From Gammaproteobacteria bacterium (GTDB lineage Bacteria > Pseudomonadota > Gammaproteobacteria > SZUA-140), in assembly GCA_015492435.1 (NCBI GenBank), contig WGFB01000014.1, forward strand, positions 15,728-79,727: a DNA stretch of 64,000 bases, in the 5' to 3' direction. Shown here in pieces: positions 11,113-34,895 of this stretch. A model generated the notes under the pieces. It was not told the DNA's origin and did no database searches. It saw nothing but the letters and a program-made list of their open reading frames with translations. Positions within the stretch are counted from its first letter, which is position 1. Every line of letters begins with the position of its first letter. Made by a program: the position numbers and the translations under genes.

Positions 11113-12057
11113 CTACCGCGTCCCGTGGGAGGGATACAGGGTTTTTCTCAGCCCTTCCGAAAGTGAAATACGCGGCGCCCAGCCACAGGCATCCCGCCAG
11201 GGCGAGGTGTCATGGCATACCCAGTCTTCATGGAGCAATTCCCGCGCCTTGCCAGGGGTCAGCATGGGGGCGTATCCGGCCACGCGGGCCATCTGTCCAT
11301 TGAGCGCGGCGAGGCCACGCAGCGCCCAGGAGGGAAGATAGCATTTCCTCACCCTGGCACCACGGAGGCTGGCAACCGCTGCCACCACATCTTCCCAGCC
11401 ATAACCACCAGCCCGTCCGTCATCCAGTTCATAGACCCCGCTCCGGCCGGATGGCATCTCCAGGCCACATAGAATGGCCCGCACCAGATCATCGACATAG
11501 AGCAGGGAAAAACGCGCTTGCCTGGAGCCGGGAATAAGGGCCAGGCCACGGGCCATCCACTGGAACAAGGGCAGGAGTTCACGGTCGCCGGGACCGTAGA
11601 CCGCCGGCGGACGCAACGCCAGCCACTCCAGCTTCTCTCCCAGAGCGAGAAGGACTTCCTCTCCTCCGCGCTTGCTGGCGGCATAGTGGGACAAGGCGGG
11701 CTCGCGGGCCGCCAGGGAAGACAGCGCGATGAGGCGGGGCGGGCAGGGTTGCGCCAGCACGGCACTGGCCATTTTCCTCACACCTTCCACGTTGACGCGG
11801 TCGAACTGGGCCTGGGTACGGCCGCGCACGGCGCCGGCACAATGGATCACGGCCCTGACACCGCGCGTCAGGTGTTCGAGGCAGTCCTGATCGTCCAGGT
11901 CCCCGCTGATCCATGCGAGGCCCGGCCGGGCCGGTGATTCCAGGGGACGGACGGCCCGCCTGAGGGCGCGCACTTCCCAACCCTGGTCCAGCAACGCCTT
12001 GACCAGGGCGCGCCCGATGAATCCCGTCGCGCCGGTGACTGCTACGCTGCGGGACAC
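11113..12057 (-). CDS. cerR: NAD-dependent epimerase/dehydratase family reductase (bacterial 3-ketodihydrosphingosine/ceramide reductase CerR candidate)
   Basis: 314 aa. N-terminal Rossmann motif VTGATGFIGRALV. It sits between acp and the acyl-ACP synthetase, as in the Caulobacter ceramide cluster. Confidence 0.6.
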   Translation of the reverse strand: MSRSVAVTGATGFIGRALVKALLDQGWEVRALRRAVRPLESPARPGLAWISGDLDDQDCLEHLTRGVRAVIHCAGAVRGRTQAQFDRVNVEGVRKMASAVLAQPCPPRLIALSSLAAREPALSHYAASKRGGEEVLLALGEKLEWLALRPPAVYGPGDRELLPLFQWMARGLALIPGSRQARFSLLYVDDLVRAILCGLEMPSGRSGVYELDDGRAGGYGWEDVVAAVASLRGARVRKCYLPSWALRGLAALNGQMARVAGYAPMLTPGKARELLHEDWVCHDTSPWRDACGWAPRISLSEGLRKTLYPSHGTR

Positions 12058-12090
12058 GGGAGCACCCCTGTCAGGATACGGGGGATGGCC

Positions 12091-13896
12091 TTATTGATCT
12101 CCCGCTGCCGCGGTCTGCGTTTCCCAGTCGTGCGCCTCAATGAAATTCTGGCGCGCCTTGGACCGCGAGAGCTTGCCGGAGGAGGTGCGCGGCAGGGTAT
12201 GCAGGGGCACCAGCTCCACATAGCAGTCGATGCCCAGTTCGGAACGCACGCGCTGCTTGAGGCGGCTGACCAGGCAGGCCTGGACCGCGGGATCCTTCTT
12301 GCGGCACTGAACCACCATCACGGTGGTCTCCTTGCCGCCCGGACCGGGCGCCGAGAAGGCCAGGGCATCGCCCGTGCGCACTTCGGGCTGCTGCTCGGCC
12401 AGATACTCCAGATCCTGGGGCCAGATGTTGCGCCCGTTGATGATGATAAGGTCCTTCTCCCGGCCCGTGATCACGAGCTGGCCGTCGAGGCGGTATCCGA
12501 TATCACCCGTGTTCAGCCAGCCGTCCGCGGACAGGGTCCGGCGCGTGATCTCGGGCTCGTTGAAGTAGCCGGACATGACGCTGGGGCCACGCAAGTAGAT
12601 CGTGCCGCTGTGACGCTCTGGCAGGGCATTACCCTCCTGATCACGTATTTCCACTTCGAAACCCGGCAGCGGGGTTCCGCAGACAACGAAGGATCGGGTG
12701 CGGGGGGACAGATCTTCCTTGTTACCGCCCGGCACCTCACGTGCCTCGTGACACTTGGCCAGATGATCGGCGTCGATGCGATCCACCTGCAGGCCCGTGT
12801 TGAGGGGCGCGAAACTGATGGCCAGGGAACATTCGGCCATGCCGTAGCAGGCCAGGAAGGCCTTGGGATCGAAGCCGCTGGGTTCCAGCGCCTTTGCGAA
12901 TCTCAGCAGCGGCTCGGAGCGGATCATCTCCGCACCGACTCCGGCAATGCGCCATGCGCTGAGGTCCAGCTTGCTGGCCTCGCCCGCGCGTATGCAGCGC
13001 TCCACCAGTTCATAGCCGAAGGGCGGGCCGAAGGAAATGGTCGCCTTCGTTTTGCTCATCAGGGACAACCATTGACGCGGGCGCATGGCGAATTCGCGTG
13101 TGCCGAGATAGTCGACGGATACCTGAGAAGTGACGGGCACGAGCACCAGCCCCACGAATCCCATGTCGTGATAGAACGGCAGCCAGGACACGTAACGGTC
13201 TCCTGGAACCATTTTCAGGCCGTGCTTGATGATGCCCGCCAGATTGTCCAGCACTGTTTCCTGGGTGATCATGACGCCGCGCGGGAAGCGGGTACTGCCG
13301 GAGGTGTATTGTATGTAAGCCAGTTCGTCGGACTCCAGGGGACGCAGGGCCTGCTGGCTTTCGGGGAAGTTCTCGAAGTCCACCGGATCGCCGACGAAGG
13401 CCATGTCCAGGCCCTCGGCCGCTTCCTCCAGATAGGGCAGGAAACCCGCGGCGGAGACGCCTACCGAGGCATTGCAACTGGTCAGCATGGAACGCAGATG
13501 AGCGACGTAGGCCTCGTGTCCGCCCAGGCTGATGGGGATGGGGAGCGGCACGGGCACCAGGCCCGCGTACTGACATGCAAAGAAGAATCGCAGGAAGTCC
13601 GGATGCGTCTCGGCAATCAGCGCGACGCGCGCGCCGCGTTCCAGTTCCAGGCCGAGAAAACGGCGGGCCAGTATTCGTGCTTCCTGACGCAGCCTGGCAT
13701 AGGAGAGTACGGCATATACTTCGCCTCGCCCGGTATAGAAATTACAACCGGTTTCCCCTTGAGCCGCATAGTCCAGGGCTTCCGCAAGATTGGAAAAGTC
13801 GGCTGCACGGAATGGCAAAGTATTATGGGTAGGTGTCGTCTCCAGATCCAAATTAACCTCCTTAATACTTCTCCTGTTGGTTTCTGTCCCTAGCAT
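12091..13896 (-). CDS. Fatty acyl-AMP ligase / acyl-ACP synthetase
   Basis: 601 aa. AMP-binding motifs YTSGSTRFPRGV, YGMAE, TGDIG and the C-terminal SSGKLSR lysine motif. Good RBS (AAGGAGG) upstream. Confidence 0.8.
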   Translation of the reverse strand: MLGTETNRRSIKEVNLDLETTPTHNTLPFRAADFSNLAEALDYAAQGETGCNFYTGRGEVYAVLSYARLRQEARILARRFLGLELERGARVALIAETHPDFLRFFFACQYAGLVPVPLPIPISLGGHEAYVAHLRSMLTSCNASVGVSAAGFLPYLEEAAEGLDMAFVGDPVDFENFPESQQALRPLESDELAYIQYTSGSTRFPRGVMITQETVLDNLAGIIKHGLKMVPGDRYVSWLPFYHDMGFVGLVLVPVTSQVSVDYLGTREFAMRPRQWLSLMSKTKATISFGPPFGYELVERCIRAGEASKLDLSAWRIAGVGAEMIRSEPLLRFAKALEPSGFDPKAFLACYGMAECSLAISFAPLNTGLQVDRIDADHLAKCHEAREVPGGNKEDLSPRTRSFVVCGTPLPGFEVEIRDQEGNALPERHSGTIYLRGPSVMSGYFNEPEITRRTLSADGWLNTGDIGYRLDGQLVITGREKDLIIINGRNIWPQDLEYLAEQQPEVRTGDALAFSAPGPGGKETTVMVVQCRKKDPAVQACLVSRLKQRVRSELGIDCYVELVPLHTLPRTSSGKLSRSKARQNFIEAHDWETQTAAAGDQ

Positions 13897-14703: not shown

Positions 14704-15858
14704 ATGGAAAACTGCTGCGCCATGTCTGAATCATCAAGGTTTCACATCGTACCCGTCGGGAACGCCAGGCAACTGGAAACATTTATCCGGATGCCATGGC
14801 CCATCTACCGCGATGACCCGGCCTGGGTTCCCCCGCTCATATACGAGCGCAAGGAACACCTGTCGGAAAAAAACCCTTTTTTCCAACACGCCCGCTGGCA
14901 GGCCTGGCTGGCCATGGACGAAGACCGCCCAGTGGGACGCATCAGCGCCCAGATTGACCAGTTGCACCTGGAACGCTATGACGACAAGTGCGGCCATTTC
15001 GGCATGCTGGAAGCCATCGACAACCCGGCGGTTTTCTCTCTGCTGCTGAACACGGCGGAGCAATGGCTGCGCGATCAGGGCATGGCCCTGATCCGCGGTC
15101 CATTCAACCTCTCCATCAATGAAGAATGCGGGCTCCTGGTGGAGGGCTTCGACACACCGCCCTCCCTCATGATGGGACATGCCCGGCCTTACTACGGCCC
15201 GCATGTGGAAGGCCAGTCCTACAGCGTGGTTAAGCAATTGCTGGCCTATCGTATTGCCACCAGGAAACAGCCTCCGGAAATCATGCAAAAGCTGACGCGC
15301 AAGGCCGGCCGCACCGCGACGGCGCGCCCCCTGAGACGCAAGGAAATCGACAAGGAGCTGGAGATCATGCAGGACATCTTCAACGATGCCTGGTCCAACA
15401 ACTGGGGATTCGTTCCCTTCACCGCCGAGGAATTCAAGGAGGTCGGGCGCAACCTCCTGATGCTGGTCAGCGACGACTTCGTGCAGATCGCGGAGATCGA
15501 CGGCGAGCCGGTGGCCATGATGGTTGCCCTGCCCAATGTCAACGAGGCCATCAAAGACCTGGATGGCAGACTCTTTCCAACGGGATTTCTGAAGCTGCTG
15601 TGGCGTCTCAAGGTCAAATATCCGCGCAGCGGGCGCATCCCCCTCATGGGGGTGCGCAAGCGTTATCATCATACCCCCCTGGGGCCCGGACTGGCTTATC
15701 TGATGATTTCCGCCATCCGTGACGCCGTCTTGAAACGCGGCATCCAGGATATGGAAATGTCCTGGATACTGGAGGACAATGCCGGCATGCGCCATATCTT
15801 GGAAACCGCCGGCGCCGAAATTTACAAGCGCTACAATATTTATCAGAAATCATTGTGA
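14704..15858 (+). CDS. GNAT-fold N-acyltransferase, bacterial ceramide synthase (bCerS) candidate
   Basis: 384 aa with coding-like composition. It is divergently oriented to the spt-acp-cerR-ACP-synthetase block across an AT-rich control region. The family call rests on context and size, not on clear motifs I could verify by eye. Confidence 0.5.
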   Translation: MENCCAMSESSRFHIVPVGNARQLETFIRMPWPIYRDDPAWVPPLIYERKEHLSEKNPFFQHARWQAWLAMDEDRPVGRISAQIDQLHLERYDDKCGHFGMLEAIDNPAVFSLLLNTAEQWLRDQGMALIRGPFNLSINEECGLLVEGFDTPPSLMMGHARPYYGPHVEGQSYSVVKQLLAYRIATRKQPPEIMQKLTRKAGRTATARPLRRKEIDKELEIMQDIFNDAWSNNWGFVPFTAEEFKEVGRNLLMLVSDDFVQIAEIDGEPVAMMVALPNVNEAIKDLDGRLFPTGFLKLLWRLKVKYPRSGRIPLMGVRKRYHHTPLGPGLAYLMISAIRDAVLKRGIQDMEMSWILEDNAGMRHILETAGAEIYKRYNIYQKSL

Positions 15859-16679
15859 CAGCGCGCACACGGGCCACACCCCTGCCTGACCAGCCCCGTT
15901 TCAGTGCCATCATCCTGGCGGGGGACCGCCGCCCCGGGGACCCACTCGTTCTGAAGGCGGGGGTCGCCGGCAAGGCCTTGATCCCCGTCGCCGGCATTCC
16001 CATGGTCCAACGCGTCGTCAGCGCCCTTGAGGAAAGCCGTTTCATCGGCAGGCGCATACTCTGCGGGCCGCCCCGCGACGCCCTGATAAGCGCCCCCCGC
16101 CTCCTGGAGATGATTCAGGCGGGTGAAGTCGAATGGATGGAGAGCCAGCCTTCCCCATGCCTCAGCGCCATCCACTCCATGGCGCGCATTCCCGATACGG
16201 AACCCGTGCTGCTCACCACGGCGGATCACGCACTGCTGAGCACGGAGATTCTTGACGAATTCTGCCGCCACGCACTCGACCACAAGCATGATGTGATGGC
16301 GGGCCTGGCACGCCACGAGGACATTCTGCGCGCCTACCCGGAAACGAACAGGACGTCCCTGCGCTTTCGCGATGGCGCTTTCAGCGGCTGCAACCTGTTT
16401 GCCTTTCCCACTCCGGCAGGCCGCCGCATCACGGCATTCTGGCGCCGCGTGGAGCAACAACGCAAGAACCCCTTCCGGGTCGTGAGCGCGGCGGGCTGGA
16501 TGGCTGTCCTGCGCTATGCCTTGGGCCGGCTGACCCTGGAAGAAGGACTGCAGCGCATCTCCCGGCGCCTGGATCTGCGTGTCGGGGTCGCTGTCTTGTC
16601 CCAGCCCGAAGCAGCCATCGACATCGATACTGTTGAAGACTGGAAATTGGCCGACAAAATAGCCAGGGAACGCCCGTAA
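15855..16679 (+). CDS. MobA-like NTP-transferase domain protein (nucleotidyltransferase)
   Basis: 274 aa. The N-terminus AIILAGDRRPGDPL...KALIPVAGIPMVQRVV is typical of MobA-like and sugar-phosphate nucleotidyltransferases. It overlaps the bCerS stop by 4 nt (ATGA), which implies translational coupling. Confidence 0.7.
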   Translation: MTARTRATPLPDQPRFSAIILAGDRRPGDPLVLKAGVAGKALIPVAGIPMVQRVVSALEESRFIGRRILCGPPRDALISAPRLLEMIQAGEVEWMESQPSPCLSAIHSMARIPDTEPVLLTTADHALLSTEILDEFCRHALDHKHDVMAGLARHEDILRAYPETNRTSLRFRDGAFSGCNLFAFPTPAGRRITAFWRRVEQQRKNPFRVVSAAGWMAVLRYALGRLTLEEGLQRISRRLDLRVGVAVLSQPEAAIDIDTVEDWKLADKIARERP

Positions 16680-16686
16680 CGGACGT

Positions 16687-17709
16687 TTGCGAACACCCAT
16701 ATTGCCTGACTACCCGGGGATGACCAGACAACAACAGCACAAACCCTGCACCGCGCGGAGCATCACCCACCTGCTGCCGGCACGGATGACTGCCCTGCTG
16801 CTGTTGCCCATGCTGATGATGCCGGTGGTCAAGCTTCAGGCCGCTCCCAGCACGGGAGAACAGGCGGCTCCACCATCCTATGACCTCAATTCCCTGACAT
16901 GGCGTGCATTGCATTTCGCAACCTCCATCATGGGCATGCCGCTTCACGCCAAAATGAAGGCCCGGATTCTTTCAAGGGACGAGGCACAGCGGCATCTGGT
17001 TTCCCCGGGCGAGGGGCACGGTATGCCACCCGCTGACGCCGTGCTGCAATTGGAGGTATTCTCCTCGTTCATCAATGACAAAGACATTCACACCCGCCTG
17101 ATGATCAATCCCGGTGACGCCGCGGCGCTGCAGCGCACCCGCGTCGAACTGACCCCGGGAGACGAGCGCTACAAGGCATACCGTTTCACCGGGGAAGGGG
17201 TTTTCATCCTGCGGCGCGTCCCCAGGCGGGGCGAGGCTGAAAAGCCCTTTACGGAATGGACGGGCACACACGAATCCTTCATCCCCTATCCCGGCCGTCA
17301 CCGCCGCCCGGACCTCGCCTCGGACACGGCCGCGCTGCTCTACATGGGTTCAGCCGCGAACTTCACAGCACCCGGCGACAGCAAAAGCTTCATTGCCTAT
17401 TTCGATGACAGCTTTCACGTGATTACGATGGAGTACCAGGGTATCGAAGGCGTACGGGCGGATTTCCAGGCCGGGCGCCAGGATGCGGGGTCACGGCGCA
17501 TCCTGAGCTACCGGGACGCCCTGCGGCTGACGATCCGCGCCCATCCCCTGGAACGCCCCAATGAAGAAAGCACGCTCCAGATCGCGGGCCTGGAGCCCCC
17601 GGTGGAGCTGTTCATCGATCAGGAAATGCGTGTCCCCCTGGAATTGCGCGGCCGCTTCGGTTTCATCGGGGAAATCTCCCTGCGCCTGGACAGGGCAGAG
17701 CTGCGGTGA
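16687..17709 (+). CDS. Secreted/periplasmic hypothetical protein
   Basis: 340-aa ORF. A likely signal peptide starts at the internal Met (MTALLLLPMLMMPVVKLQAAP, ~16786). No family recognised. It is the last gene of the bCerS operon. Confidence 0.5.
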   Translation: MRTPILPDYPGMTRQQQHKPCTARSITHLLPARMTALLLLPMLMMPVVKLQAAPSTGEQAAPPSYDLNSLTWRALHFATSIMGMPLHAKMKARILSRDEAQRHLVSPGEGHGMPPADAVLQLEVFSSFINDKDIHTRLMINPGDAAALQRTRVELTPGDERYKAYRFTGEGVFILRRVPRRGEAEKPFTEWTGTHESFIPYPGRHRRPDLASDTAALLYMGSAANFTAPGDSKSFIAYFDDSFHVITMEYQGIEGVRADFQAGRQDAGSRRILSYRDALRLTIRAHPLERPNEESTLQIAGLEPPVELFIDQEMRVPLELRGRFGFIGEISLRLDRAELR

Positions 17710-17773
17710 GTGATGTAATAATTATCCGGAATACCAAGTCCAAACAAGGTACAAGATGCAAAAGGCTGCTTCC

Positions 17774-17885
17774 CTTGTACCGTGTACCTTGTACCTTGTA
17801 CCTTGTAACTTGTAACTTGTACCTTGTAACTTGTACCTTGTACCTTGTAACTTGTAACTTGTACCTTGTACCTTGTACCTTGTAC
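17774..17885. repeat. Heptanucleotide tandem repeat (CTTGTAC/CTTGTAA)x16
   Basis: Directly visible: 16 contiguous 7-bp units with two alternating variants and one CGTGTAC variant. It lies between convergent gene ends. Confidence 0.95.
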
Positions 17886-17916
17886 CTTACTTAGATTGCG
17901 CCAGACTCAGCCCTGG

Positions 17917-19410
17917 CTACCCCTGCCAGGACAGGCCCTGGCCCGCCATGGACACGGCGCGGAACATGGCCCGCCCCTTGTTCAGCGTCTCCTCCCATTC
18001 GTTCGCCGGCACGGAATCCGCCACAATACCCGCGCCCGCCTGGATATGGAGCGTTCCATCCTTGATGACCGCCGTCCGGATGGCGATCGCCGTGTCCATA
18101 TTGCCCTGCCAGCCGATATAGCCCACGGCGCCCGAATAGATGCCGCGCTTGACGGGCTCAAGTTCGTCGATAATCTCCATGGCGCGTATCTTGGGCGCGC
18201 CCGACACCGTGCCGGCGGGGAAAGTGGCGCGCAGCACGTCCATCGCCGTCATATCCGGCCTGAGTTCTCCGGTTACGTTGGACACGATATGCATAACGTG
18301 AGAATAACGTTCCACGACCATTTTCTCGGTCAACTTCACCGTGCCGGTACGCGCCACACGGCCGGTATCGTTGCGGCCCAGATCGATCAGCATGAGATGT
18401 TCGGCCAGTTCCTTGGGATCGGATAACAATTCCTCCTCCAGGCGGCGGTCCTCTTCCTCGGTCGCACCGCGCGGGCGCGTGCCGGCAATAGGCCTCACGG
18501 TCACCACGCCATCCTCGAGCCGGGTCAGGATCTCGGGGGAGGAACCGACAATGTAAAAATCCCCCATGTTCATGTAATACATATAGGGGGAGGGATTCAG
18601 GGTGCGCAGGGCGCGGTAAACATCCAGCGGCGGGGACACATAGGGAATGGACATGCGCTGAGACAGCACGGTCTGCATCACGTCCCCCGCTACAATATAA
18701 TCCTTGATGCGCAATACGGCCTTTTCAAAGCCTTCACGGGTGAACCCCGAAATGAAAGCCTTTTCGTCCACGGCCCCGCCGCGCGCCCCAGGCACGGGAT
18801 ATTCCAGCGGCTCCCGCAAGCGTGACGCCAGTTCATCCAGGCGCCGCTGGACCGTCTCCCAGGCATCGCTGCGCGCGGTGTCGGCATGCACGATCAGGTA
18901 AAGCTTCCCCGACAAGTTGTCGAATACGGCCACTTCTTCCGAGACCAGCAGCATGATATCCGGCGTACCCAGAGTATCCCGCGGCGGGTCCGTACCCAGA
19001 CGGGGCTCGATATAACGAATGATGTCATAGGCAAAATACCCCACCAGCCCTCCCGAGAAGCGCGGCATGCCAGCTACTTCCGGAACCCTGAATCCATGAA
19101 CATAGTCGGCGATCCACGCCAGGGGATCGTCATGGCTTACCTGCTCGATGATGGTGTCGCCCTGTTCAACGGTTATCTCCTTCCCGCTGACACGCACTTT
19201 ACGGACACAAGGCAGGCCGATAATGGAGTACCGCCCCCACTTCTCTCCCCCCTGAACCGACTCCAGCAGATAGGAATAGGGCCGGTCACCGGCGAGCTTC
19301 AGGAAAGTGCTCAGTGGCGTGTCGAGATCCGCCAGCACCTCGCGCATCAGGGGGACGCGGGTATATCCGGCCTTCCTGAATGACTCGAACTGTTGAAGCG
19401 TGACTGTCAC
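17917..19410 (-). CDS. trpE: Anthranilate synthase component I
   Basis: 497 aa. [27 protein letters not shown] and [20 protein letters not shown] match the TrpE C-terminal chorismate-binding region. Apparent GTG start. Confidence 0.9.
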
Positions 19411-30817: not shown

Positions 30818-30908
30818 CCGGCGGACCGATGATCAAACCGTCATTGAGAGGGATGTAAGTTCAAGGTACAAGATGGCAGCCCTTTGCGCTCTGTGCCGGC
30901 GGCGGTTG

Positions 30909-34703: not shown

Positions 34704-34825
34704 TTTTCAACACCCCGAATCATTGTCTTTACTTTGTATCAGTCCTCACCACCCTGGGCACACGCACACGCCCCGGCACCATCCCGGTATCCAATGGACT
34801 TAACCACGCCCAACCCAACCTACAG

Positions 34826-34895
34826 CCCCTTTCCCCTTTACTCTTTCCCCTTTCCCTTTACTCTTTTCTCTTTGCTCTTTTATCTTCCCCTGCCC
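34826..34895. repeat. Pyrimidine-rich low-complexity tract (polypurine on the transcribed strand) inside the his operon
   Basis: CCCCTTTCCCCTTTACTCTTTCCCCTTTCCCTTTACTCTTTTCTCTTTGCTCTTTTATCTTCCCCTGCCCC. It is part of a 192-bp non-coding spacer (34704..34895) between hisH and hisA. Confidence 0.9.

What the first reader, a model, noticed from the sequence alone, without database searches (positions are those of the whole stretch)
17774..17885. Sixteen-unit heptanucleotide microsatellite (CTTGTAC/CTTGTAA)
This is a perfect head-to-tail array of 7-bp units. Two variants alternate in blocks (CC and AC) and one unit carries a point variant (CGTGTAC). It sits between the convergent 3' ends of the bCerS operon and trpE.

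Heptamer arrays are classic slipped-strand mispairing substrates. Here the array is not in a promoter or ORF, so it more likely acts as a protein-binding array (the reverse strand reads GTACAAG/GTTACAAG repeats) or a genomic instability hotspot. The spurious ORF 17706..17894 merely translates the repeat.
Basis: seen in the sequence. Interest (0 to 1): 0.55.

Follow-up and report, generated by a model that had tools for sequence, protein, structure and literature searches.

The report
Unstable seven-base repeat between converging genes
A real, fast-changing run of sixteen 7-base repeats lies in the gap between two converging genes of an uncultured gammaproteobacterium. It is a new example of an already described class of bacterial heptamer repeats and shows no sign of a sequence-specific function.

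Summary
Window 17774-17885 is a gap-free array of 16 heptamers (10 CTTGTAC, 5 CTTGTAA, 1 CGTGTAC) between the stop codons of an orphan 329-aa gene and trpE.

Contigs of the same population (99.7-99.9% identical flanks) carry 10, 11, 16 or at least 18 units, with different unit orders or assembly gaps. A degenerate heptamer array 17 kb away is identical in all of them. A sister lineage (about 95-96% DNA identity, same gene order) lacks the whole 159-bp module, and two more distant relatives also lack it.

Arrays of this heptamer occur in many phyla. Same-composition control heptamers are about as frequent, and period 7 dominates tandem repeats in those loci.

Verdict: a young, slippage-prone heptanucleotide repeat of the type described by Mrazek 2007, and as inverted pairs in Xanthomonas. 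Instability is supported; a protein-binding array is not. One curiosity is unexplained: inverted pairs occur in only one arrangement.

The parts
17774..17885 (+). Heptanucleotide array, 16 units (10 CTTGTAC, 5 CTTGTAA, 1 CGTGTAC). It is the expanded, pyrimidine-rich 3' arm of the palindromic module.
17742..17762 (+). Inverted, degenerate left arm: AAACAAG GTACAAG ATGCAAA. Bases 17744-17755 (ACAAGGTACAAG) form a perfect 12-bp stem with 17788-17799 (units 3-4).
   Evidence: match on the - strand at 17742-17755; RNA MFE -24.6 and -23.9 kcal/mol, z -4.6 and -3.8
17763..17773 (+). Spacer or loop AGGCTGCTTCC between the two arms.
17886..17897 (+). Degenerate tail of the array (CTTACTTAGATT), the last part of the lineage-specific block.
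17739..17897 (.). Whole 159-bp block present in this lineage. In the sister lineage a single base stands in its place, and the flanks align on both sides.
   Evidence: alignment A1; the BLAST alignment to L130/L131 breaks at 17738 and resumes at 17898
16720..17709 (+). Upstream convergent gene: a 329-aa orphan protein (340 aa from the TTG at 16687). It has no Pfam or NCBIfam match and only 7 relatives in 5.8 billion proteins.
17917..19410 (-). trpE (anthranilate synthase component I), last gene of an rpe-gph-trpE run.

Best explanation
The feature is a young, hypermutable heptanucleotide simple-sequence repeat. It is the over-expanded arm of an inverted heptamer pair, (NNACAAG)3 - 11 nt - (CTTGTAM)16.

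The whole 159-bp palindromic block is present in this lineage and absent from its sister and from two more distant relatives. It was therefore most likely gained recently in the non-coding gap between two converging genes.

Since then it has changed length and unit order by replication slippage, in steps of one to several units (7 to 42 bp). The hairpin that the left arm can form with any register of the array may promote this slippage.

It has no sequence-specific function. Its only likely molecular effect is that both converging transcripts, if they extend into the spacer, end in or run through a moderately stable AU-rich hairpin.

Shown: the array, the inverted arm, the hairpin potential, the polymorphism and the absence in relatives. 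Inferred: slippage as the mechanism, gain rather than loss, and neutrality.
For: Array and inverted arm.

Hairpin: a 12-bp perfect stem, z -4.6 on the + strand and -3.8 on the - strand. The equivalent sister spacer has no significant structure (z +0.9 and +1.1).

Polymorphism:
- 10 units in three independent assemblies (L002, L003, L126).
- 11 units in L128.
- 16 units in the window.
- At least 18 units in L124.
- Different unit orders in L123 and L125.
- 100-N scaffold gaps inside the array in four distinct scaffolds (L001=L122, L123, L124, L125).
- L003 and L128 come from the same assembly but carry different alleles.
- Flanks are 99.5-99.9% identical to the window, apart from the gapped L126 alignment at 98.9%.

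Internal control: the degenerate heptamer array in the hisH-hisA spacer shows 0 differences over 192 nt in six contigs of the same population.

Lineage specificity:
- Sister contigs L130-L132 (329-aa protein 91% identical, DNA 95-96%) have a 49-bp spacer whose flanks align across the missing block.
- More distant relatives have spacers of 5 bp and 3 bp.

Generic class:
- (CTTGTAM)3 occurs in at least 118 stretches across many phyla.
- Period 7 dominates: 67 non-seed arrays of 57 different units, against 14 of period 8 and 7 of period 9.
- Control heptamers of the same composition give 29 and 7 hits against 17 for this one in viral contigs.

Literature: heptamers are the most abundant long SSR class and polymerase slippage has been proposed as the cause (Mrazek 2007, as summarised in PMC4679880, and PMC4692102). 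Inverted heptamer pairs with length variation between close relatives are described in Xanthomonas (PMC4692102).
Against: - Most variant contigs are short-read metagenome assemblies, which can collapse or break repeats. The exact allele lengths above about 11 units are therefore uncertain.
- Gain versus precise loss in the sister cannot be polarised rigorously, because the more distant relatives have almost no spacer.
- Neutrality is an absence-of-evidence argument. No expression or 3'-end data are available.
- The strict one-way arrangement of inverted pairs (39 to 1) shows that some constraint or bias acts on this class, and pure slippage does not explain it.
Confidence: 0.65

Rival explanations
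1. The module is a functional RNA 3'-end element that works like a REP sequence or a weak bidirectional terminator. The heptamer hairpin would stop or pause converging transcription, or protect both mRNAs from 3' exonucleases. Array length would tune this effect.
For: - It lies between convergent 3' ends, and no canonical terminator is found in the spacer.
- A stable hairpin forms on both strands. On the trpE strand the stem is followed by UUUGGACUU.
- Across the 118 loci, hairpin-type arrays are rare between divergent genes: 3 of 30 intergenic cases. Xanthomonas shows a similar pattern (7-8% divergent).
- The one-way arrangement puts the A-rich arm 5' and the U-rich arm 3' on both strands, as in bidirectional terminators.
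- Acidobacteriota copies enclose a GC-rich hairpin followed by TTTGAA.
Against: - The stem is AU-rich and the enclosed region is 32 nt long.
- The tail has no run of U, and the terminator scan finds nothing there.
- The sister lineage and two more distant relatives manage without the module.
- Single arrays show no orientation bias relative to co-directional genes: 17 sense against 22 antisense.
- Sequence just upstream of arrays folds no better than sequence downstream (mean z -0.21 against -0.12, p 0.49).
- Most of the 16 units are unpaired and are not needed for the hairpin.
Confidence: 0.2
2. The 159-bp block is a copy of a small non-autonomous mobile or templated element, comparable to a MITE, a REPIN or a telomere-like addition. 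Its ends are heptamer arrays. It spreads within and between genomes, which would explain the same inverted architecture in many phyla.
For: - The block is present or absent as a discrete unit with clean flanks.
- The same (KTACAAG)n-spacer-(CTTGTAM)n architecture appears in about 25 genomes of at least 6 phyla, always in one arrangement.
- Acidobacteriota metagenome-assembled genomes carry many copies with 28-nt perfect inverted arms.
Against: - There is no target-site duplication.
- Spacers differ in length and sequence between copies, so there is no conserved cargo.
- There is only one copy in this 64-kb window.
- The arm-plus-loop sequence was not found anywhere in the metagenome collection.
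- No transposase or reverse transcriptase is evident among the flanking ORFs of 150 aa or more; those scanned or annotated are metabolic or respiratory genes.
- The pre-existing flank ATACCAAG already resembles the unit, which is compatible with origin in place.
- The heptamer is no more frequent than control heptamers.
Confidence: 0.1
3. The array is a protein-binding array. Contiguous heptads would be bound cooperatively by a DNA-binding protein, as the omega repressor binds WATCACW heptads.
For: Sixteen contiguous heptads plus inverted heptads formally resemble omega-type operator or centromere arrays. This comparison rests on my own knowledge of pSM19035 and was not tested here. GTAC palindromes recur every 7 bp.
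Against: - The module is not conserved in a sister lineage with identical gene order.
- Unit number and order are variable.
- There is no promoter to regulate, because both neighbours end here.
- No partition gene or small DNA-binding gene was found among the neighbours.
- The heptamer is not over-represented against controls.
Confidence: 0.04
4. The array, or its variability, is an assembly artefact.
For: Scaffold gaps of 100 N and contig ends fall inside the array in several assemblies.
Against: - The array is seen in the window and in 12 other independent contigs with the same flanks.
- The 70-bp and 77-bp alleles are shorter than a typical short read (inferred; the read lengths of these assemblies were not checked). 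The 10-unit allele recurs in three separate assemblies.
- A degenerate array is assembled identically in the same samples.
Confidence: 0.01

Closest known systems
Xanthomonas GGGAATC heptamer repeats, including their inverted pairs (Rehm et al. 2015, PMC4692102)
   Same: - Intergenic heptamer arrays of 2 to 26 units.
- Many occur as two arrays in convergent orientation separated by a short spacer, with the purine-rich arm first, so they can form stem-loops.
- They lie mostly between co-directional or convergent genes and rarely between divergent ones.
- Length differs between close relatives.
   Different: - The unit is different (GGGAATC is G-rich and forms quadruplexes, whereas CTTGTAC cannot).
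- The Xanthomonas repeats are dispersed in about 185 copies per genome. Only one (CTTGTAM)n array is seen in this 64-kb window.
- Here one arm is strongly over-expanded (16 units against about 3).
Long simple sequence repeats with 5-11 bp units, heptamers most abundant (Mrazek et al. 2007, as summarised in PMC4679880 and PMC4692102)
   Same: A tandem heptamer array much longer than chance, intergenic, in a free-living bacterium. Polymerase slippage is the proposed cause.
   Different: None in kind. The present case adds population-level allele data and a presence/absence comparison with a sister lineage.
TAACTGA direct repeats of marine Beggiatoaceae, Cyanobacteria and Bacteroidetes (MacGregor 2015, PMC4679880)
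   Same: One heptamer recurs as tandem arrays in distant phyla with no evident transfer mechanism. Some (CTTGTAA)n arrays in Chloroflexi also lie directly upstream of a ribosome-binding site and ATG.
   Different: TAACTGA sets have 2 to 6 copies, lie just upstream of start codons and almost never occur as inverted pairs (1 of 170). The array here lies downstream of two stop codons and has an inverted partner.
Short tandemly repeated repetitive (STRR) heptamers of heterocystous cyanobacteria
   Same: Tandem heptanucleotide arrays in non-coding DNA, mentioned for Calothrix PCC 7601.
   Different: The units and the host group are different, and STRRs are a dispersed multi-copy family. This comparison rests partly on my own knowledge.
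REP / REPIN elements (repetitive extragenic palindromes)
   Same: An extragenic imperfect palindrome at gene 3' ends that can form an RNA hairpin. It is present or absent between close relatives.
   Different: REPs are fixed sequences of 20 to 40 nt, dispersed in tens to hundreds of copies and linked to a RAYT transposase. Here the arms are tandem heptamers of variable number, and neither multi-copy dispersal nor a RAYT gene was seen.
Omega (pSM19035) heptad operator/centromere arrays
   Same: Seven or more contiguous 7-bp units in direct and inverted orientation. This comparison is from memory and was not tested.
   Different: The sequence is different (WATCACW), the setting is a plasmid promoter or partition locus, and those arrays are conserved. 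None of this applies here.

Membership tests
Heptanucleotide long SSR / VNTR (Mrazek-type LSSR) | Head-to-tail copies of one 5-11 bp unit, longer than expected by chance | tested here: met
   TRF finds 16.6 copies, 0% indels, score 190. The two-unit pattern gives 17 matches against 0.29 expected.
Heptanucleotide long SSR / VNTR (Mrazek-type LSSR) | Copy number differs between closely related genomes | tested here: met
   10, 11, 16 and at least 18 units in contigs whose flanks are 99.5-99.9% identical.
Heptanucleotide long SSR / VNTR (Mrazek-type LSSR) | Non-coding location | tested here: met
   It lies between two stop codons. The only ORF over it is absent from the sister lineage.
Inverted heptamer-repeat pair (Xanthomonas type, Rehm 2015) | Two arrays of the same heptamer on opposite strands, convergent, a short distance apart | tested here: met
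   The left arm at 17742-17762 is the reverse complement of the array, 11 nt away. The left arm is short and degenerate.
Inverted heptamer-repeat pair (Xanthomonas type, Rehm 2015) | Dispersed in many copies in the same genome | tested here: inconclusive
   Only one (CTTGTAM)n array occurs in 64 kb. The rest of the genome is not available. A second, unrelated heptamer array is present at 34826-34891.
Contingency locus (phase-variable SSR) | The repeat lies in an ORF, promoter or 5' UTR, so that length changes switch a gene | tested here: not met
   Both neighbours end at the spacer, and no promoter-like site was found.
Intrinsic (Rho-independent) terminator | GC-rich stem with a short loop, followed by a U-tract | tested here: not met
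   The scan finds no such site in 17710-17916. The hairpin is AU-rich, encloses 32 nt and is followed by UUUGGACUU or by repeat units.
REP / REPIN | A conserved palindromic unit dispersed in many extragenic copies, with an associated RAYT gene | tested here: inconclusive
   A palindrome at gene 3' ends is present. No second copy was found in the window and none in the metagenome collection. A RAYT gene was not searched for genome-wide.
Heptad operator/centromere bound by an RHH protein (omega type) | Heptad consensus WATCACW, in promoters of partition or copy-control genes, conserved | tested here: not met
   The unit is CTTGTAM. No promoter or par gene is nearby. The module is absent from the sister lineage.
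Known RNA families (Rfam 15) | Match to a covariance model | tested here: not met
   No hit at gathering score in the whole window. Only chance-level hits with E above 1 in 17600-18000.

The most novel reading that the evidence does not exclude
Inverted heptamer-array hairpins of the form (purine-rich heptamer)n - short spacer - (pyrimidine-rich complement)n may be a distinct, cross-phylum kind of genomic element. They would be gained as discrete palindromic blocks and exist in only one of the two possible arrangements. The cause would be a specific generating mechanism (strand-biased fold-back synthesis, or templated 3'-end addition) or a shared function (a bidirectional RNA 3'-end structure). 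The window's module would then be a freshly inserted, still-expanding copy.
Probability: 0.15. Interest if true: 0.6.

Novelty: new member of a known kind. Interest (0 to 1): 0.3.

Why it matters
Taken alone it is an ordinary variable repeat. It could serve as a strain marker for this uncultured gammaproteobacterium, and it warns that assemblies break here.

Its wider value is as a clean natural example of how heptamer arrays are born and age:
- A near-perfect, polymorphic array is absent from a lineage only about 4-5% diverged.
- A degenerate, stable array lies 17 kb away and is shared with that lineage.

The strict one-way arrangement of inverted heptamer pairs is seen here across phyla and was reported earlier for an unrelated heptamer in Xanthomonas. 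It remains unexplained. It could point to the still unknown mechanism that makes 7 bp the favoured repeat unit in bacteria.

Tried and rejected
- **Rfam.** Searching at gathering score and at permissive E-values on the spacer found nothing.
- **Promoter and terminator scan of 17000-18600**. It found no site in the spacer.
- **Is CTTGTAM a privileged motif?** No. Viral-contig counts are 17 against 29 and 7 for two same-composition permutations. The seed loci hold 57 other heptamer units.
- **Is the array the U-rich tail of an independent terminator hairpin?** Not in general. Upstream and downstream 45-nt windows fold equally.
- **Orientation of single arrays relative to co-directional genes.** No bias was found.
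- **Paralogous copies of this module.** The arm-plus-loop sequence gave 0 hits in the metagenome collection, and there is no other array in the window.
- **Reverse arrangement, (CTTGTAC)2 - N5-35 - (GTACAAG)2.** There were 0 hits in the metagenome collection, viral contigs and all fetched loci. The forward strict pattern hits 3 loci but also gave 0 in viral contigs. No forward count exists for the metagenome collection.
- **Literature search for the repeat sequence itself.** It returned 0 papers.
- **The Mrazek 2007 paper is not held**, so it is cited through two papers that summarise it.
- **'bCerS' could not be checked.** The 384-aa protein has no Pfam or NCBIfam hit even at E up to 5.
- **The organism could not be named below class.** The closest named HisH relatives are metagenome-assembled 'Gammaproteobacteria bacterium' entries, with Nitrosococcus and Thioalkalivibrio at 63-64% identity.

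Full report
**1. The observation**

Window 17774-17885 is a gap-free array of 16 heptamers. Unit by unit it reads CTTGTAC, CGTGTAC, then C C A A C A C C A A C C C C, where the letter is the seventh base of CTTGTA_. That gives 10 CTTGTAC, 5 CTTGTAA and 1 CGTGTAC. Units 3-8 and 9-14 differ at one base, so a 42-bp block has been duplicated inside the array.

The array is far beyond chance. A two-unit pattern matches 17 times against 0.29 expected. It is the only strongly periodic stretch of any period from 4 to 12 in the 64 kb.

It lies between the stop codon of a + strand gene (ends 17709) and the stop codon of trpE on the - strand (ends 17917). ORF 17706-17894 only translates the repeat.

**2.

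Directly upstream, at 17742-17762, the sequence AAACAAG GTACAAG ATGCAAA is a degenerate inverted copy of the repeat. It is separated from the array by 11 nt. Bases 17744-17755 form a perfect 12-bp stem with units 3-4.

A 66-nt segment folds at -24.6 kcal/mol on the + strand (z -4.6) and at -23.9 kcal/mol on the - strand (z -3.8). Over the whole 207-nt spacer the left arm can pair with many registers of the array (z -1.9 and -3.0). The object is therefore an imperfect palindrome in which one arm has expanded to 16 units.

**3. Surroundings and organism**

- Upstream genes: a fatty acyl-AMP ligase, an NAD-dependent epimerase, a 384-aa protein and a 329-aa protein with no family match, and a MobA-like nucleotidyltransferase.
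- Downstream: rpe-gph-trpE and alternative complex III genes.
- The 329-aa protein has only seven relatives in 5.8 billion proteins.
- 'bCerS' could not be verified.
- Protein names of close relatives place the organism among uncultured Gammaproteobacteria.
- No Rfam family, promoter-like site or canonical terminator lies in the spacer.

**4. Variation within the population**

Exact-protein look-ups of TrpE and the 329-aa protein returned 12 other contigs of the same locus. Their flanks are 99.5-99.9% identical to the window, apart from the gapped L126 alignment at 98.9%. The array differs between them:

| Contigs | Array |
|---|---|
| L002, L003, L126 (three separate assemblies) | 10 units, no CGTGTAC |
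| L128 | 11 units |
| Window | 16 units |
| L124 | at least 18 units |
| L123, L125 | different unit orders at the right end |
| L001 (same scaffold as L122), L123, L124, L125 | 100-N gaps inside the array |

L003 and L128 come from the same assembly but carry different alleles.

As an internal control, a degenerate heptamer array 17 kb away (hisH-hisA spacer, window 34826-34891) shows no difference over 192 nt in six contigs of the same population. The perfect array is thus specifically unstable. The caveat is that short-read assemblies cannot size the longer alleles.

**5. Variation between lineages**

A sister lineage has a 329-aa protein 91% identical and DNA 95-96% identical, with the same gene order. 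Its spacer is 49 bp, and both flanks align to the window across the missing block.

The whole 159-bp module (17739-17897: left arm, spacer, array and degenerate tail) is replaced there by a single base. There is no target-site duplication. Two more distant relatives have spacers of 5 and 3 bp.

Gain in the window lineage is the simpler reading, but precise loss of a palindrome in the sister is not excluded. The flank ATACCAAG, which the sister also has, already resembles the unit. An origin in place is therefore possible.

The second array, in the his operon, is shared by the window and the sister with different units. It is absent from the next relative. It is older, degenerate and stable. 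Together the two arrays show the young and the old stage of the same kind of repeat.

**6. Is this heptamer special?**

These came from Acidobacteriota, Bacteroidota, Chloroflexota, Planctomycetota, Patescibacteria, several proteobacterial classes and others, often with several loci per genome.
- In the 821 kb fetched, tandem repeats of at least 3.5 copies are overwhelmingly of period 7. There are 67 arrays of 57 other units, against 14 of period 8 and 7 of period 9.
- In viral contigs the heptamer gives 17 hits, against 29 and 7 for two permutations of the same bases.

The unit is therefore not privileged. The phenomenon is the general excess of heptamer repeats first described by Mrazek et al. 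2007, who proposed polymerase slippage (as summarised in PMC4679880, and PMC4692102).

**7. The inverted architecture is recurrent and one-way**

Arrays were oriented to read CTTGTAM, and an inverted two-unit match with at most 3 mismatches was sought within 120 nt. It lies upstream in 39 of 112 arrays and downstream in 1.

The upstream cases come from about 25 genomes, including Thioalkalivibrio, Acidiferrobacterales, Gallionella, Thiobacillus, Bacteroidetes, Planctomycetota and Acidobacteriota. The two arrangements contain the same duplex, so stability cannot explain the bias.

The reverse arrangement gave no hit in 241 million metagenome records or in any fetched locus. The forward strict pattern occurs in 3 fetched loci. 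No forward count could be made in the metagenome collection.

Rehm et al. 2015 reported the same for an unrelated heptamer: 70-75 GGGAATC pairs per Xanthomonas genome, always convergent, again with the purine-rich arm first. They also reported length differences between close species and few cases between divergent genes. My rough gene-context count agrees: 3 of 30 intergenic hairpin-type arrays lie between divergent genes.

I tested one explanation, that arrays are U-rich tails behind independent terminator hairpins. It is not supported in general, although Acidobacteriota copies do enclose a GC hairpin followed by TTTGAA. The bias remains unexplained.

**8. Mechanism and rivals**

Best supported (confidence 0.65): a recently gained palindromic heptamer module whose right arm expands and contracts by replication slippage in steps of 7 to 42 bp, without a sequence-specific function. 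Its incidental effect is a moderately stable hairpin in both converging transcripts, if they extend into the spacer.

| Rival | Confidence |
|---|---|
| Functional REP-like or terminator-like RNA 3' element | 0.2 |
| Small mobile or templated element | 0.1 |
| Protein-binding heptad array | 0.04 |
| Assembly artefact | 0.01 |

The protein-binding idea fails on conservation, on context and on the lack of any excess of this unit.

**9. Verdict**

The one-way arrangement of inverted heptamer pairs is the only part that might lead somewhere new.

Noticed in passing
window 34826-34891 (spacer 34704-34895 between hisH and hisA, - strand operon): A second, degenerate heptamer array: (CCCCTTT/ACTCTTT)n on the + strand, (AAAGGGG/AAAGAGT)n in the mRNA sense. 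It sits inside the his operon. It is identical in six contigs of the same population, present with different units in the sister lineage and absent from the next relative. It has no inverted partner.
   Followed up: yes
L004-L121 (for example L018 6480-6620, L030, L077 6538-6610, L091, L119, L008): Inverted heptamer pairs occur in only one arrangement, (KTACAAG)n - spacer - (CTTGTAM)n. The count is 39 against 1 in about 25 genomes of at least 6 phyla. The reverse arrangement gave 0 hits in the metagenome collection. Xanthomonas GGGAATC pairs follow the same purine-arm-first rule (PMC4692102). The cause is unexplained.
   Followed up: partly
L006 6802-6921, L046 3308-3422, L054 3617-3725, L057 2725-2857, L084 7649-7752, L089 2527-2650, L090 6058-6141: Several Acidobacteriota metagenome-assembled genomes carry many dispersed elements of the form AG(TTACAAG)3-4 TTCAAAG ... 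CTTTGAA(CTTGTAA)3 CT. The arms are near-perfect 28-nt inverted repeats, and the inner part (50-90 nt) is variable. It often holds a GC-rich hairpin followed by TTTGAA. They look like REP-like or terminator-flanking elements.
   Followed up: partly
L045 150-420 (Thalassotalea sp. ND16A); L029 1400-1650: Arrays of different heptamers lie side by side in one intergenic region. L045 has GCTCGTA, CTTGTAC and GTTCCTA. L029 has GGGATGT, GGAGCAT, CTTGTAC and CCTGACA/CCTGAAA.
   Followed up: no
L096 2800-2890, L092 6100-6170, L033 6145-6200, L071 (Chloroflexota/Anaerolineae): (NNCGTAA/CTTGTAA)n arrays end a few bases before a ribosome-binding site and ATG. This recalls the TAACTGA repeats upstream of start codons in Beggiatoaceae (PMC4679880).
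   Followed up: no
window 14704-17709 (+) and 11113-13896 (-): A conserved cluster next to trpE holds a fatty acyl-AMP ligase, an NAD-dependent epimerase, a 384-aa protein and a 329-aa protein with no Pfam or NCBIfam match, and a MobA-like nucleotidyltransferase. The 329-aa protein has only 7 relatives in 5.8 billion proteins, all in the same gene order.
   Followed up: partly
L003 (WFPY01000457.1) and L128 (WFPY01000387.1), both from GCA_015487295.1: Two contigs of one assembly overlap at the array but carry different alleles: 10 units without CGTGTAC and 11 units with it. This indicates heterogeneity within the sample, and it is why the assembly breaks here.
   Followed up: yes
window 30859-30872 (- strand): An isolated two-unit match, CTTGTACCTTGAAC (1 mismatch), is the only other trace of the motif in the window. 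It is probably chance.
   Followed up: no
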